This document shows, one piece after another, positions 6,001 to 9,000 of a stretch of 12,246 bases of DNA; the first letter of the stretch is position 1; the number at the start of each line of letters is the position of its first letter. A program made the position numbers. Origin of the DNA: a virus (lineage: Duplodnaviria; Heunggongvirae; Uroviricota; Caudoviricetes); IMG/VR virus record IMGVR_UViG_2548876950_000019, one strand, 5' to 3'.

Positions 6001-9000
6001 TTTAAAGCCTGTAAAACAAGACAATGGCTGCGCTCAAAAGCAGAACTGGCATACTTCTTCTACTCATGATATCCAGCCACAAACCTCTGTAGACCGCCAT
6101 CCGGCGGTCTTTTCATATCTATTCGCACCTTAAAGGTAATAAAAAACCAAATCTGGTTGATCTTTTTTTTGTGTCAGCACAAAATAACCGTAATCCCAAT
6201 ACTAATAACAGGGCTTACCATGGAAATCATTACACGTATTGATGCCGCAAAGCGCGGACTTAAACGCTACTACACCGGAAAATCATGTAAGCACGGACAT
6301 GACAGTGAACGCTGGGTTTACAACGGACACTGTGTTGAGTGCACCATGGAATCAAACCGTCGCATCAGGGCAGAGATTAAGCAGATCATGATTAATTCCT
6401 CCCCACAACATTCAAGCTGATAGCGGAGATTAATCATGAGCAGACATGCAACAGATTGGGCCTGGGAGACAGACCCAGGTAGCTCATCATTAAAGCTCAT
6501 ACTGCTCTCGATGGCTGACAGAGCCGATGAATATAACCTCTGCTACCCCAGCATAGAACGCCTCGTTAAAGACACTTGCCTGAATAAAAAAACCGTGCAG
6601 TCCGGGCTTATATCGCTCATGAAAATGGGGCTTATTTCAGATACCGGAGAGAGAAAGGGAGCGACGAAAAGAGTGCGGGTTTTCTCTCTTAATATAACCA
6701 AAAACGGGAACATTAAAGGCAACCGGGAAGGGTGTAATGAACCCGAAAACGGTAATGTTCCCGAAAACGGGAATATACCCAAAAACGGGATGTTGAATGA
6801 TCCCAAAAACGGGATGTTGAATGATCCCAAAAACGGGATCCAGAACCAGTCATATAACCAGTCATTTAACCAAGAGAGGGAGAGCAGGACAAAAACCGGG
6901 GATTCTGTGCCTCATGACCCCGGCGCAAACAACGCCGTGATGAATAACTTTGTTCCTCCTGGTGGGCCAGGGCAATTAGGCAAATTTGTCATGCATGAAC
7001 AATGGCAACCATCAGATGACTTTCTTCGGAAAAGCTCATTGCAGGGAATCTACCTGGACAGTCTGCCAACGGCACAGGAACTTGCAGAATTCAGAATTTA
7101 CTGGATGGCTGAGGGTAAGGCATACCATCAGGCACAGTGGGAGCAGAAGCTGGCAAGGCGGCTGCAGATTAGCAGACAGAAGCAATCAACATTACCTGAT
7201 AACAACGTTCCGCACTGGAACAGCCCTGAAGCGTGGGAGGATTTCTTGTGAACAACGTTTTTACCGCGATACAAAACCGTGACGGAGAAGCCCTTTCTCG
7301 CATGTCAGGTTATGAGCATCAGTACGTCAACAATGACAATGTGGTGAACATGTCAGCAGAGAGGCTTGTTGATGCCCTTTTCAAACAGCTGAAACAACTG
7401 TTTCCGGCGGCAGTGGTAACCAACCTGAAGACGCCAGAGCAGGAAGTCGCTGCAAAACAGCAGTGGATTGCTGCGTTTGCCGAAGGTGGGATCCGAACCC
7501 GTGAACAGGTTTCTGCTGGTATGCGCCACGCCCGCGCCAGTGAATCTCCGTTCTGGCCGTCGCCTGGGCAATTTATCAAGTGGTGCAAAGACAGCAAGAT
7601 GGTTCTTGGTGTCACCATTGACGATGTGATGGCGGAGTTTCACCGGTACAGCAAGGAAAAAAGTTTATATCCTGGCGGTCCCGAAAGATTCCCGTGGCGG
7701 CATCCGGTTATGTACTGGGTTGTATGTGATACCCGCCGCGCAATGTATCAGCGCCAGCTTAGCGAGATTGAGGTTGAGAAACACGCGCGCAGGTTGCTCG
7801 ATGATTGGGCGAAAAAGGTGGCTTCCGGACAGCAGATACCCGATCCGGTGATCAGCATACAGGCAAAGCCAGAACCCATGAGTACGCCTCCGGACACAGG
7901 GAGAGACGTTTACCACCCGCCAGGGCGAAGTTTCGGGTGCATGCCTAACGCCGCCACCCTGGGTGGAATAACACCGGCACAGTGGCTGATGGAGGAATAC
8001 AGGCGGGGAAAGGCGGCAGGATTTATCAAGTAATACCAGCGCGATAGCGCATTTTTTTACGTCTAGATGATTACCTGGTGGGTAATAAAATATACTAAAA
8101 TCTATTGATTTCGTGTCTTATGTGGTTTTTAATTACCTCGGGGGTAAATCATGAGAAAACAGATACAGGCTCTTGGTCGACTCAAAACAGGCCAGATGAA
8201 CAAAACAGAATCTGCGTATTGCCAGCACCTTGAGCAGCGTAAACGTGCAGGGGAAATCGCCTGGTATCGATTCGAGGGTCTCAAGCTGCGGTTAGCTGAC
8301 AACACGTTCTATACGCCCGATTTTGCTGTGATGCTCGCCACCGGCGAGATGGAACTGCACGAAGTGAAAGGTTTCTGGACCGACGACGCCAGGGTGAAAA
8401 CCAAAGTCGCCGCAGATCAATATCCGTTCCGAATCATCGGGGTAACGGTTAAACCAAAGAAAGCAGGTGGTGGCTGGAACATCGAAGAGTTCTGAATCGA
8501 CGATCTTTTTAGTTATCAATGTAATCAATAAGTTATGTGGATAAGCGAGGGTAAAGATGGAAAGTAATATCAAAGGGTTAGTTTCCGCCGGGCATGAGAT
8601 GGCTTCGGAACTGAAAGCAGAATGTGGTGCCGTTGATATGCGTAGTGTGGCAAAGCTGATCAGCGATTTGGCAACGCAACTGGAAGTGCAACTGGTGCGT
8701 GCTAATGCGCTGGCCGAAGACCAGCAGAAAGCGATTGAGTCAATTAAGCAGGCTGATGCAGCTGTTAAGTTGGCACACGAGAAGTTTTCAGCGCTGGCGG
8801 CGGAGAATGCGGGGCTGAAGTCTGGCGCTATGGACGAAATCAAGGTTATCAACCGTGGAGGGCAGGCATATTGCGTAAAAGATGGAGTGCAAGTCAATCC
8901 CATGTATGCAAGAGGGTGGAATGACTATCGCGCAAAGTCTCTGCAATCAGACACCCCAGCCACCGACGCTTTCCTGGCTGAAGTACGAGCGCAGGGCGTG

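What the first reader, a model, noticed from the sequence alone, without database searches (positions are those of the whole stretch)
6741..6880. Iteron array inside the initiator gene, with the DNA repeats also encoding a repetitive NG-rich linker peptide
Five tandem repeats with core CCC(G/A)AAAACGG(G/T)A lie inside the O-like gene (two 24-bp units are identical), followed by a short repeat-containing segment (ACCAGTCAT twice). This parallels the lambda origin, which sits inside the O gene as iterons plus an AT-rich region. Here the iterons also translate into the repeat peptide NGNVPENGNIPKNGMLNDPKNGMLNDPKNG, so copy number affects both origin and protein.
Basis: partly seen in the sequence, partly recalled or inferred. 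Interest (0 to 1): 0.5.

Follow-up and report, generated by a model that had tools for sequence, protein, structure and literature searches.

The report
Replication origin inside phage initiator gene
The tandem repeats are very probably the replication origin of a phiV10-like E. coli phage, laid out like the classic lambda and phi80 origins that sit inside the initiator's own gene; the finding is real and well supported, but it is a further example of a known design.

Summary
Three 12-mers (GAACCAGTCATA-type, 6843-6878) follow. All lie between the HTH_36 DNA-binding domain and the DnaT-like C-terminal domain of the initiator gene (6436-7251), next to a lambda-P-type gene, in a phiV10-like phage.

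The repeats are constrained as DNA, not as peptide:
- In 76-77 diverse relatives the same iteron-then-GAAYC-repeat layout follows the HTH_36 domain, often at 17- or 22-bp spacing, so the motif is read in several frames.
- Third-codon identity between the window and an 80%-identical relative is 39/40 inside the element and 56% elsewhere.
- The units are dyad-symmetric around an A-tract, like lambda iterons.
- One unit (6758-6773) is identical at 16/16 positions to an annotated phi80 gp15-binding site, in a different frame.
- The DNA-binding domain is a distant homologue of lambda O's (profile-profile 89%).

Copy number varies naturally (4-9 cores, always in frame), so origin and linker change together, as is known for Stx phages. 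Binding and origin activity remain untested. It is a new member of a known kind, of modest interest.

The parts
6436..7251 (+). O-like replication initiator gene (271 aa): HTH_36 N-terminal domain, repeat-encoded linker, DnaT-like C-terminal domain
   Evidence: ORF list; Pfam HTH_36 3.7e-11 and DnaT 1.1e-15; PHROG phrog_1032 'replication initiation protein' 1e-108; 96-98% identical to the phiV10 'replication initiation protein' gene.
6436..6696 (+). N-terminal winged-helix-type DNA-binding domain (aa 1-87; Pfam HTH_36 core aa 18-67 = nt 6487-6636), the presumed iteron binder
   Evidence: Pfam. Conserved in all 77 relatives. Profile-profile match to the lambda O-type N-terminal domain: probability 89.4%, E 2.1e-6, covering the helix-turn-helix and wing that end just before the iterons in both families.
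6694..6711 (+). Iteron 0 (degenerate): ATAACCAAAAACGGGAAC
   Evidence: Pattern hit with 1 mismatch; arms match 3/6. Conserved in phiV10, BP9 and EC.W1-9.
6739..6756 (+). Iteron 1: GAACCCGAAAACGGTAAT (18-bp unit)
6757..6774 (+). Iteron 2: GTTCCCGAAAACGGGAAT (18-bp unit). Contains TTCCCGAAAACGGGAA, identical 16/16 to annotated phi80 gp15-binding site 2.
   Evidence: Exact match at 6758, the only one in the window; phi80 protein_bind annotation; inverted arms ATGTTCCCG / CGGGAATAT.
6775..6792 (+). Iteron 3: ATACCCAAAAACGGGATG (start of the 24-bp periodicity)
6799..6816 (+). Iteron 4: GATCCCAAAAACGGGATG (24-bp unit; arms 5/6 complementary)
   Evidence: This unit is absent in BP9.
6823..6840 (+). 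Iteron 5 (last): GATCCCAAAAACGGGATC, with perfect 6-bp inverted arms around AAAAAC
   Evidence: Inverted repeat GATCCC / GGGATC, 100% complementary. Matches the family consensus AGTCCCAAaAayGGGAC-ACA-GAAYC.
6843..6878 (+). Three 12-mers GAACCAGTCATA / TAACCAGTCATT / TAACCAAGAGAG: the family-wide 'GAAYC' 12/13-mer element directly after the last iteron, and the candidate unwinding or loading site
   Evidence: TRF period 12. GAAYC-N7/8-DAAYC is present in 61/76 diverse relatives against 0.009 expected per 400 nt. The cores fall in two reading frames within the same locus in 49/61 loci. One of the two least stable 30-mers inside the gene, z +1.6. phiV10 has a fourth copy.
6872..6896 (+). Purine-rich run (AAGAGAGGGAGAGCAGGACAAAAAC), at the position where relatives have an A/T-rich run
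   Evidence: Sequence. In relatives the AT fraction peaks at 0.86 at +30 to +40 from the first GAAYC. Here it is not AT-rich.
6985..7191 (+). DnaT-like C-terminal domain (aa 184-252), the presumed partner of the P-type loader and/or ssDNA binder
   Evidence: Pfam DnaT 1.1e-15. PDB DnaT chains 9zbt_D 6.2e-21, 4ou6_A 4.1e-20 and 2ru8_A 2.4e-19 over aa 180-265.
7233..8033 (+). Lambda-P-type helicase loader gene. 7233 is the longest possible start; by analogy with the phiV10 annotation the real start is probably the GTG at 7248, overlapping the initiator's stop codon.
   Evidence: Pfam Phage_lambda_P 1.5e-56; phiV10 annotation.

Best explanation
The stretch 6694-6878 is the origin of replication of this phiV10-like temperate phage, embedded in the linker-coding part of its own initiator gene, as in lambda, phi80 and P22.

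Proposed mechanism:
1. Dimers of the initiator's N-terminal winged-helix (HTH_36) domain bind the five or six dyad-symmetric, A-tract-centred iterons and assemble an 'O-some'-like nucleoprotein complex.
2. This complex distorts and opens the adjoining GAAYC 12-mer element (6843-6878).
3. The DnaT-like C-terminal domain recruits the P-type loader (7233/7248-8033) in complex with host DnaB to the opened DNA.
4. Transcription reading through the gene from the early rightward promoter probably helps.

Because the sites lie in coding sequence, they also encode an NG-rich inter-domain linker. Gain or loss of 18- or 24-bp units changes the number of binding sites and the linker length together.

What is shown here: the repeats exist; they are conserved as DNA independently of the peptide; they are dyad-symmetric; they travel with the DNA-binding domain; and they have the same form as annotated lambda and phi80 iterons. 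What is inferred: that this protein binds them, that unwinding occurs at the 12-mers, and that the C-terminal domain contacts P.
For: 1. Non-random array. Six cores on one strand against 0.43 expected; TRF arrays.

2. Position. The array lies between the DNA-binding domain and the C-terminal domain of a replication initiator, next to a P-type loader. Lambda has the same layout, with annotated iterons starting right after the Phage_rep_O domain. So do P22 (rep_origin annotated directly after the N-terminal domain) and phi80.

3. DNA-level selection.
- In 73 diverse relatives (40-86% identical DNA-binding domain), an unbiased search finds mostly 3-10 copies of an 11-mer in the 350 nt after the domain. 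Control regions of the same loci have 1-2, rarely 3.
- A fixed 10-nt core occurs at 6.9 per kb inside that stretch and 0.25 per kb outside it, and is strand-biased.
- In 24 of the 31 loci with 3 or more hits, the core lies in 2 or more reading frames; 17- and 22-bp spacings are common.
- Third-codon identity between the window and L089 is 39/40 in the element against 118/211 in the rest of the gene, p = 4.8e-8. Five further pairs show the same trend.

4. Binding-site form. The units have inverted arms around an A-tract. Across the family, 72% of last iterons have arms complementary at 5/6 or more, against 5% of shuffles.

5. Same form as proven or annotated origins. Lambda has ATCCCTCAAAACGAGGGA, Ab31 GTGCCGAAAACGGCAC and phiEt88 GTTACCAAAACGGTAAC. 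The phi80 gp15 site TTCCCGAAAACGGGAA is present exactly at 6758.

6. The DNA-binding domain is distantly homologous to lambda O's: probability 89.4%, E 2.1e-6. PMC5509034 also treats HTH_36 + DnaT_C proteins next to P as O-like.

7. Modularity.
- All 77 relatives keep HTH_36 with the repeats, while the C-terminal domains vary (DnaT 8, Phg_2220_C 5, DnaA_N 2). The neighbouring genes vary too (P 16/58, DnaB, IstB).
- GF-2 is a natural chimera: this N-terminus with iterons, joined to a lambda-O C-terminus (62% identical, 2e-67) next to P.

8. Domesticated non-initiator copies (DopC) lack iterons (PMC5509034).

9. A conserved 12/13-mer element follows the last iteron in 61/76 loci. Lambda-type phages carry a conserved short repeat inside their AT-rich unwinding region at the same position.
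Against: - There is no experiment. No paper or record examined annotates an origin for phiV10-type phages.
- The segment next to the iterons is only mildly unstable (z +1.6) and is not AT-rich in this phage. Much less stable AT-rich DNA lies in intergenic regions at about 8082 and 5799.
- Iteron spacings of 18 and 24 bp do not keep sites on one face of the helix, unlike phi80 (21 bp).
- Pfam places the domain in HTH_36, not Phage_rep_O. Comparison of the profile with a single lambda O sequence was inconclusive.
- Part of the high DNA identity among units within one phage could reflect recent slippage rather than selection.
Confidence: 0.8

Rival explanations
1. The repeats are binding sites for the initiator, but they act mainly in control: autoregulation of the gene, titration or handcuffing, or exclusion of related replicons. 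Strand opening and helicase loading would occur elsewhere, for example in the strongly AT-rich intergenic DNA just after the P gene (about 8050-8140).
For: The adjoining segment is only mildly unstable, whereas 8082-8112 is the least stable 30-mer of the whole window (GC 0.27). In iteron plasmids the same sites serve both initiation and control (established knowledge; PMC4980987 listed).
Against: - In lambda, phi80 and P22, which have the same layout and iteron form, the origin is at the intragenic iterons.
- A sequence-conserved 12/13-mer element with an AT peak is attached to the last iteron across the family.
- The 8050-8140 region follows a terminator annotated in phiV10 and holds no copy of the motif.
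Confidence: 0.1
2. The repeats are DNA sites for something other than the initiator, such as a packaging, partition or host-factor site that happens to lie in this gene.
For: The DNA-level constraint does not by itself say which protein binds.
Against: - The array is always directly downstream of the HTH_36 domain and travels with it. It does not travel with the C-terminal domains or neighbouring genes, which vary.
- Its sequence changes with the domain's lineage: CCCRAAAACGG in enterobacterial and Vibrio relatives, AGTCCCAACRWTGGGAC in Acinetobacter.
- One unit is identical to an annotated initiator-binding site of phi80.
- No Rfam family matches.
Confidence: 0.05
3. The repeats are only a slippage-prone low-complexity linker, selected at most at the peptide level, with no function as DNA.
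For: - In this window all units are in one frame and encode an NG-rich peptide.
- Copy number varies by whole units among near-identical phages.
- The units within one phage are 100% identical, as expected after recent duplication.
Against: - The same DNA motif is read in 2-3 frames in relatives and in phi80 and lambda, so the peptide is not conserved while the DNA is.
- Synonymous positions are frozen: 39/40 against 56%.
- The motif is dyad-symmetric far beyond shuffles.
- It is about 30-fold enriched locally and strand-biased.
Confidence: 0.03

Closest known systems
Phage phi80 origin in gene 15, with gene 14 (P-like)
   Same: - Iterons lie inside the initiator gene, directly after the N-terminal DNA-binding domain, and a P-type gene follows.
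- The annotated gp15-binding sites are TTCCCGAAAACGGGAA-type 15-16-mers. Site 2 is identical 16/16 to window 6758-6773.
- The sites encode part of the linker.
   Different: - gp15 is a Phage_rep_O / lambda-O-type protein. It has no BLAST similarity to this initiator (E 3.7) and no DnaT-like C-terminal domain.
- phi80 has four sites at about 21-bp spacing; the window has six at 45/18/18/24/24.
- The sites are read in a different frame.
- The post-iteron sequence differs: phi80 has ACAAGAACAAGAACAG followed by a lambda-like GAGAATTC...GAATCC palindrome.
Phage lambda ori with O and P
   Same: - The origin lies inside the initiator gene, between the DNA-binding and C-terminal domains.
- The iterons are dyad-symmetric with an A-tract centre: ATCCCTCAAAACGAGGGA in lambda, GATCCCAAAAACGGGATC here.
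- Lambda's iterons lie in different codon phases.
- A conserved short repeat follows the last iteron.
- A P-type loader gene follows.
- The DNA-binding domains are distantly homologous.
   Different: - The N-terminal domain belongs to Pfam HTH_36, not Phage_rep_O.
- The C-terminal domain is DnaT-like, not lambda-O-type.
- The arms are two base pairs shorter.
- There is no about 40-bp strongly A/T-rich tract; three GAAYC 12-mers and a purine-rich run take its place.
Stx-phage origins (933W, P27): six iterons against four in lambda
   Same: Natural variation in iteron number changes the O protein at the same time: 13 extra residues (PMC7466680). The window's family varies from 4 to 9 cores, always in frame.
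   Different: These are true lambda O proteins and lambda iterons. Binding and function were tested experimentally there; nothing has been tested here.
DopC/DopE of Cellvibrionales and Oceanospirillales (PMC5509034)
   Same: The protein architecture is the same: an HTH_36 N-terminus and a DnaT_C-like C-terminus, encoded next to a lambda-P-like gene.
   Different: DopC is chromosomal and domesticated, and is reported to lack iteron-like sequences. The window's gene is in a phage and carries a full iteron array, so it represents the undomesticated state.
Iteron plasmids (pPS10/RepA, F/RepE, R6K/pi, RK2/TrfA)
   Same: Winged-helix initiators bind directly repeated iterons next to an unwinding element that itself contains short 13-mer repeats. 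Iteron number matters for control. (Established knowledge; reviews listed, such as PMC4081077.)
   Different: - In plasmids the iterons lie outside the rep gene.
- The initiators belong to other families; there is no Rep_3 hit here.
- Plasmid origins usually include DnaA boxes.
E. coli DnaT (primosomal protein I)
   Same: The C-terminal 85 residues are homologous to the DnaT C-terminal ssDNA-binding domain (E 6e-21).
   Different: The N-terminus is an origin-binding HTH_36 domain, not the DnaT N-terminal domain. The database name 'primosomal protein I' given to this gene is misleading.

Membership tests
Lambdoid-type intragenic origin (ori inside an O-like initiator gene) | Three or more direct repeats (iterons) inside the initiator gene, between its DNA-binding domain and its C-terminal domain | tested here: met
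   Six cores at 6697-6836, between HTH_36 (aa 18-67) and the DnaT domain (aa 184-252).
Lambdoid-type intragenic origin (ori inside an O-like initiator gene) | Each iteron is dyad-symmetric around an A-rich centre (site for a dimeric binder; bent DNA) | tested here: met
   GATCCC/GGGATC and ATGTTCCCG/CGGGAATAT arms; arm matches of 3-6 out of 6. Across the family, 72% have 5/6 or more against 5% of shuffles. Same form in lambda, phi80, Ab31 and phiEt88.
Lambdoid-type intragenic origin (ori inside an O-like initiator gene) | The repeats are constrained as DNA, independently of the encoded peptide | tested here: met
   The motif lies in 2-3 frames in 24/31 relatives. GAAYC cores lie in 2 frames in 49/61 loci. 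Third-codon identity is 39/40 against 118/211, p = 4.8e-8, and five more pairs agree.
Lambdoid-type intragenic origin (ori inside an O-like initiator gene) | An AT-rich, easily unwound region directly next to the last iteron | tested here: inconclusive
   6841-6871 is among the two least stable 30-mers in the gene, but only at z +1.6, with GC about 0.42. Relatives show an AT peak of 0.86 at +30 to +40; the window has a purine-rich run there instead.
Lambdoid-type intragenic origin (ori inside an O-like initiator gene) | A helicase-loader or helicase gene immediately downstream (P-type in lambda) | tested here: met
   7233-8033 is Phage_lambda_P at 1.5e-56.
Lambdoid-type intragenic origin (ori inside an O-like initiator gene) | The initiator binds the iterons, and the fragment supports replication | not testable with these tools
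   Needs EMSA or footprinting and a plasmid replication assay. No published test was found.
Lambda O protein family (Pfam Phage_rep_O N-terminus with lambda-O C-terminus) | The N-terminal domain matches Phage_rep_O | tested here: inconclusive
   Pfam gives HTH_36, not Phage_rep_O; lambda O gives Phage_rep_O only. The profile against a single lambda O sequence gave 4.5-10.8%. The profile-profile comparison gave 89.4%, E 2.1e-6, over 49 columns. This indicates distant homology, not family membership.
Lambda O protein family (Pfam Phage_rep_O N-terminus with lambda-O C-terminus) | A lambda-O-type C-terminal (P-binding) domain | tested here: not met
   The C-terminus is DnaT-like. The relative GF-2 does have the lambda-O C-terminus, 62% identical.
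HTH_36-type O-like phage initiators (PHROG 1032 and relatives) | An HTH_36 N-terminal domain in a phage early-right operon, annotated as a replication initiator | tested here: met
   Pfam; PHROG 1e-108. The context is repressor, cro-like gene, O-like gene, P.
HTH_36-type O-like phage initiators (PHROG 1032 and relatives) | Family-wide composite element after the domain: iterons, then ACA/ACG, then 2-3 GAAYC 12/13-mers | tested here: met
   The window has GATCCCAAAAACGGGATC-CA-GAACC... at 6823-6878. The same layout occurs in 61/76 diverse loci.
DnaT (primosomal protein I) | Full-length similarity to DnaT, including its N-terminal domain | tested here: not met
   Only aa 180-265 match DnaT residues 85-170. 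The N-terminus is HTH_36.
Iteron-plasmid Rep origins | A Rep_3 / RepA-type initiator with iterons outside the gene | tested here: not met
   No Rep family hit. The iterons are inside the gene.

The most novel reading that the evidence does not exclude
The GAAYC 12/13-mer triplet that always follows the last iteron (6843-6878 here; 61/76 diverse relatives) may be a sequence-specific unwinding or single-strand-binding element read by the HTH_36 initiator itself. That would make it a phage counterpart of DnaA-trios or of Rep binding to the single-stranded unwinding element of plasmids. It is conserved from E. coli to Acinetobacter, Vibrio and Desulfovibrio phages regardless of which helicase loader is used.

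In addition, the exact identity of one iteron with a phi80 gp15 site may mean that initiators unrelated by BLAST share one DNA-recognition code. phiV10-type and phi80-type replicons in the same cell could then cross-bind, cross-activate or exclude each other.
Probability: 0.25. Interest if true: 0.55.

Novelty: new member of a known kind. Interest (0 to 1): 0.3.

Why it matters
It gives a concrete, testable origin (about 6694-6880) for phiV10/Uetakevirus-type phages. No origin is annotated in their records, and their initiator is misleadingly named 'primosomal protein I / DnaT'.

It also shows that the large HTH_36 class of O-like phage initiators, found from enterobacteria to Acinetobacter, Vibrio and Desulfovibrio, carries the same embedded origin design and the same iteron form as lambda and phi80. 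This supports a common ancestry for these replication modules.

It explains why the linker of these proteins is repetitive and variable in length: the peptide is a by-product of DNA binding sites.

Practical uses:
- Annotating origins in prophages.
- Predicting replicon incompatibility between co-resident prophages.
- Designing phiV10-based reporter or engineering vectors, since synonymous recoding of this stretch should be avoided.

It does not overturn any current view.

Tried and rejected
- AlphaFold2 on the single sequence gave mean pLDDT 34. It is unusable, so the claim of a disordered linker rests on domain boundaries, recombination boundaries and tolerance of frame changes, not on a model. 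An alignment-based model was not attempted.
- hhalign of the HTH_36 profile against a single lambda O sequence was inconclusive (4.5% and 10.8%). Only the profile-profile comparison was informative.
- The first version of the motif regex double-counted overlapping hits and inflated the frame counts. It was discarded and redone.
- Local phmmer classification of C-terminal domains left 51 of 82 loci unclassified. It was replaced by Pfam scans of the whole set; most C-terminal domains still have no Pfam family.
- The GATC (Dam/SeqA) cluster in the 24-bp iterons is not significant: 709 of 2000 random placements match it.
- An RNA element is unlikely: no Rfam match at E up to 1 in 5600-8300.
- Promoter and terminator scans were not above shuffles. 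The two minus-strand terminator-like hairpins inside the array are by-products of adjacent iteron arms.
- A programmed-frameshift reading of CCC-AAA-AAC was considered and rejected. The heptamer is not canonical, and relatives with CCAACAATGG-type units keep the array.
- Literature searches for an origin or iterons in phiV10 or epsilon15 phages, for the motif itself, and for HTH_36 with iterons found nothing specific. The epsilon15 genome paper is not held. The phiV10 genome paper and the Weigel & Seitz 2006 review of phage replication modules, both known to me from memory, did not turn up in the searches, so an earlier in-silico prediction cannot be excluded.
- The first viral-contig scan returned only near-identical relatives. 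These served for copy-number statistics but not for diversity, which came from the genome scan.
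Full report
**1. What is in the sequence**

Tandem Repeats Finder reports three adjoining arrays:
- 6734-6788: period 18, 3.1 copies.
- 6778-6839: period 24, 2.6 copies, 100% identical.
- 6844-6872: period 12, 2.4 copies.

The shared core CCCRAAAACGG, with up to one mismatch, occurs six times in the 12.2-kb window. All six are on the + strand, at 6697, 6742, 6760, 6778, 6802 and 6826. The chance expectation is 0.43, and none of 200 shuffles reached six. A sixth, degenerate unit lies 45 bp upstream of the stated start.

All units are in one frame of ORF 6436-7251 and encode ...TKNG...NEPENGNVPENGNIPKNGMLNDPKNGMLNDPKNGIQNQSYNQSFNQ.... 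Each unit has inverted arms around an A-tract. The last unit is GATCCC-AAAAAC-GGGATC, a perfect 6-bp inverted repeat. The third is ATGTTCCCG-AAAA-CGGGAATAT.

**2. Context**

The window is 96-98% identical to phiV10-like (Uetakevirus) E. coli phages. It carries the following genes:
- an integrase and a DNA methyltransferase;
- RecT and a PDDEXK exonuclease;
- a repressor and a cro-like gene;
- the gene in question;
- a lambda-P-type gene (Pfam 1.5e-56);
- further early genes.

The gene in question has an HTH_36 domain at aa 18-67 and a DnaT DNA-binding domain at aa 184-252. The DnaT-like domain matches solved E. coli DnaT C-terminal structures at E about 6e-21. PHROGs calls the protein a replication initiation protein (1e-108). 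The repeats therefore lie in the segment between a DNA-binding domain and a C-terminal domain of an initiator, next to a helicase loader.

PMC5509034 already describes HTH_36 + DnaT_C proteins next to P-like genes as lambda-O-like. It reports that the domesticated bacterial versions (DopC) lack iterons.

**3. Copy-number variation**

- Among four phages more than 95% identical, BP9 lacks one 24-bp unit and phiV10 has an extra 12-mer.
- Among 78 viral contigs with a 98-100% identical N-terminal domain, 50 have exactly the window's layout: six cores at spacings 45/18/18/24/24, and two full AACCAGTCAT 12-mers.
- The other 28 have 4-9 cores and 1-3 such 12-mers. The gene always differs from the window by multiples of 6 bp, in 18-, 24- or 12-bp units, so the frame is kept.

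The same is documented for Stx phages, where six iterons instead of lambda's four add 13 residues to O (PMC7466680).

**4. DNA or peptide? This is the key test**

*tblastn shows the protein is modular.*
- Residues 1 to about 146 (domain plus repeat peptide) match Edwardsiella, Vibrio and Acinetobacter phages.
- The DnaT-like part matches other phages.

*Relatives have arrays at the same place.*
- GF-2 and Vibrio phage Her have perfect 24-bp arrays there: AATGATCCCAAAATTGGGATTTTG in 2.8 copies, and CCGAAAACGGTACTTTGAATAGGC in 4.6 copies.
- In Her the downstream short repeat has a 13-bp period. The same DNA (AGAACCAGTCAT) is therefore translated as NQSL and then as EPVI.

*A scan of one genome per species gave 80 loci with a 40-86% identical domain.*
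- An unbiased search for the most repeated 11-mer in the 350 nt after the domain found mostly 3-10 copies. Control stretches of the same loci gave 1-2, rarely 3.
- A fixed 10-nt core occurs at 6.9 per kb there, 0.25 per kb elsewhere, and 1.5 per kb on the opposite strand.
- Of the 31 loci with three or more hits, 24 have the core in two or three reading frames. Spacings of 17 and 22 bp are common.

*Synonymous sites give the same answer.*
- Between the window and an 80%-identical relative (L089), third-codon positions are identical at 39/40 inside 6694-6878.
- In the three other parts of the gene the figures are 48/86, 22/36 and 48/89 (Fisher p = 4.8e-8).
- Five further pairs behave alike: 64-85% inside, 34-51% in the N-terminal domain, and 43-49% in the stretch after the element.

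The peptide repeat is a by-product. The DNA is what is conserved.

**5. Family-wide layout**

Aligning the loci on the junction gives the consensus A-n-AGTCCCAAaAa(t/c)GGGAC-ACA-GAAYC.
- Dyad arms are complementary at 5/6 or more in 72% of the distinct last iterons, against 5% of shuffles. They are perfect in 40%, against 0.3%.
- GAAYC-N7/8-DAAYC follows the last iteron in 61 of 76 loci, against 0.009 expected per 400 nt. The first period is 12 in 48 loci and 13 in 13 loci.
- Within one locus the GAAYC cores fall in two frames in 49 of 61 cases.
- An A/T-rich run follows: the AT fraction is 0.86 at +30 to +40, against a baseline of about 0.55.

In the window this run is replaced by a purine-rich stretch. 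The 12-mer segment is only mildly unstable (z +1.6), and much less so than the intergenic AT-rich DNA at about 8082 and 5799. This is the weakest point of the analogy with lambda.

**6. Modularity**

- All 77 relatives keep HTH_36 together with the repeats. The C-terminal domains differ: DnaT 8, Phg_2220_C 5, DnaA_N 2, most unclassified.
- The next gene differs as well: P in 16 of 58, with DnaB, IstB-like and others elsewhere.
- GF-2 is a natural chimera. It has this N-terminus and iterons joined to a C-terminus 62% identical to lambda O residues 156-299 (E 2e-67), followed by P.

The DNA-binding domain and the repeats are thus inherited as one unit, as expected for a protein and its cognate sites. 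The C-terminal half goes with the loader. Lambdoid O genes are known to be modular in the same way (established knowledge).

**7. Comparison with proven or annotated origins**

*Lambda.* The four annotated iterons (ATCCCTCAAAACGAGGGA and variants) start two codons after the Phage_rep_O domain ends, and lie at codon positions 1, 3, 3 and 2.

*P22.* Its record annotates the rep_origin directly after the same domain.

*Other lambda-O-type phages use the same form:*
- Ab31: GTGCCGAAAACGGCAC.
- phiEt88: GTTACCAAAACGGTAAC.
- A Mannheimia phage: ATCCCGAAAAAGTAGGGA.
- They also have their own conserved short repeat (ACAAAAGAC...ACAAAAGA) right after the last iteron, at the position of the GAAYC 12/13-mers.

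*phi80.* It is identical to mEp237 in this region and has four annotated gp15-binding sites. Site 2, TTCCCGAAAACGGGAA, occurs exactly at window 6758-6773. It is read as F-P-K-T-G in phi80 and as P-E-N-G here. The two proteins are not similar by BLAST (E 3.7).

*Domain homology.* A profile of 48 HTH_36-type N-termini against a profile of nine lambda-O-type N-termini gives probability 89.4%, E 2.1e-6, over the 49 columns of helix-turn-helix and wing that end just before the iterons. The two initiator classes are therefore probably distant homologues that kept one mode of DNA recognition.

**8. Mechanism**

By analogy with lambda (established knowledge; summarised in PMC7466680), the proposed steps are:
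1. Dimers of the N-terminal domain bind the iterons and build an O-some-like complex.
2. The adjacent element, here the GAAYC 12-mers at 6843-6878, is opened.
3. The C-terminal domain brings in the P-DnaB complex.
4. Host chaperones free the helicase.

Shown here: the existence, DNA-level constraint, dyad symmetry, linkage to the domain, and similarity to annotated sites. Inferred: binding by this protein, the site of opening, and the contact between the DnaT-like domain and P. I put 0.8 on this explanation.

Rivals:
- Control sites with initiation elsewhere: 0.1.
- Sites for another factor: 0.05.
- Peptide-only slippage repeats: 0.03, largely refuted by section 4.

**9. Novelty and verdict**

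No origin is annotated in the phiV10 record. No paper in the held library describes one for this phage group or for HTH_36-type initiators. Key subscription papers are not held, so an earlier in-silico prediction cannot be excluded.

The design is the classic lambdoid one, and the coupling of iteron number to protein length is known. This is a new member of a known kind.

The first is the family-wide tripartite layout with a sequence-conserved 12/13-mer element. The second is the exact sharing of an iteron with phi80 by an initiator that BLAST does not relate to gp15. These are the parts a specialist might find mildly surprising. Interest 0.3.

Noticed in passing
window 2796-3677 (-) and 3674-4495 (-): RecT and a PDDEXK (DUF3799) exonuclease are separate ORFs overlapping by 4 nt here. 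The phiV10 RefSeq record annotates a single 586-aa 'RecE-RecT fusion' at the equivalent place. Either the annotation or a frameshift differs between the two.
   Followed up: no
window 6436-7251; public records: The initiator is named 'primosomal protein I / DnaT' in many phage records. Only its last 85 or so residues are DnaT-like. The N-terminus is an O-like origin-binding domain, so the name is misleading.
   Followed up: yes
window 6758-6773; L177 785-800: A 16-bp iteron is identical to annotated phi80 gp15-binding site 2, in a different reading frame and in a protein unrelated by BLAST. This raises the possibility of cross-recognition between phi80-type and phiV10-type replicons.
   Followed up: partly
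window 6721-6733 and 6889-6902: Degenerate iteron-like sequences flank the array. AACCGGGAAGGGT resembles phi80 site 1 (AACCGGAAACGGGAA). CAAAAACCGGGGAT (CAAAAAACGGGGAT in phiV10 and BP9) lies on the far side of the 12-mers.
   Followed up: no
window 6829-6810 and 6805-6786 (- strand): Two terminator-like hairpins with T-runs lie on the antisense strand. They are formed by the arms of adjacent 24-bp iterons plus the A-tract. The count in the region is not above shuffles, so this is probably a by-product.
   Followed up: partly
window 6799-6840: Three GATC sites lie within 42 bp, all inside the 24-bp iterons; enterobacterial relatives share this. The cluster is not statistically significant: 709 of 2000 random placements match it.
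   Followed up: yes
L096, L133, L137, L166: Some relatives contain iterons whose centre is a T-tract instead of an A-tract, for example ACCCCCGTTTTTGGGGGT in L096 and CCCGTTTTT in L166. These units have an inverted centre within an otherwise unidirectional array.
   Followed up: no
L002 (Escherichia phage BP9, PP488543.1 133-137 kb); PH444 (PP350014.1): A 138-kb 'Vequintavirus' record and a 115-kb record carry this phiV10-type repressor and replication module near a record end. They look like chimeric assemblies, or a prophage co-assembled with a lytic phage.
   Followed up: no
window 5100-5684 (-): The repressor-like protein has two HTH-like parts: a YdaS-like part at aa 21-61 and HTH_3 at aa 106-147. 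The phiV10 note also mentions 'two helix-turn-helix motifs'.
   Followed up: no
L008 558-567 (lambda 39157-39166) compared with L004: The GF-2 / lambda-O homology starts at lambda O residue 156, just after the AT-rich region. This is close to the misc_recomb points annotated in the lambda record. The module boundary seems to be the same in natural and laboratory hybrids.
   Followed up: no
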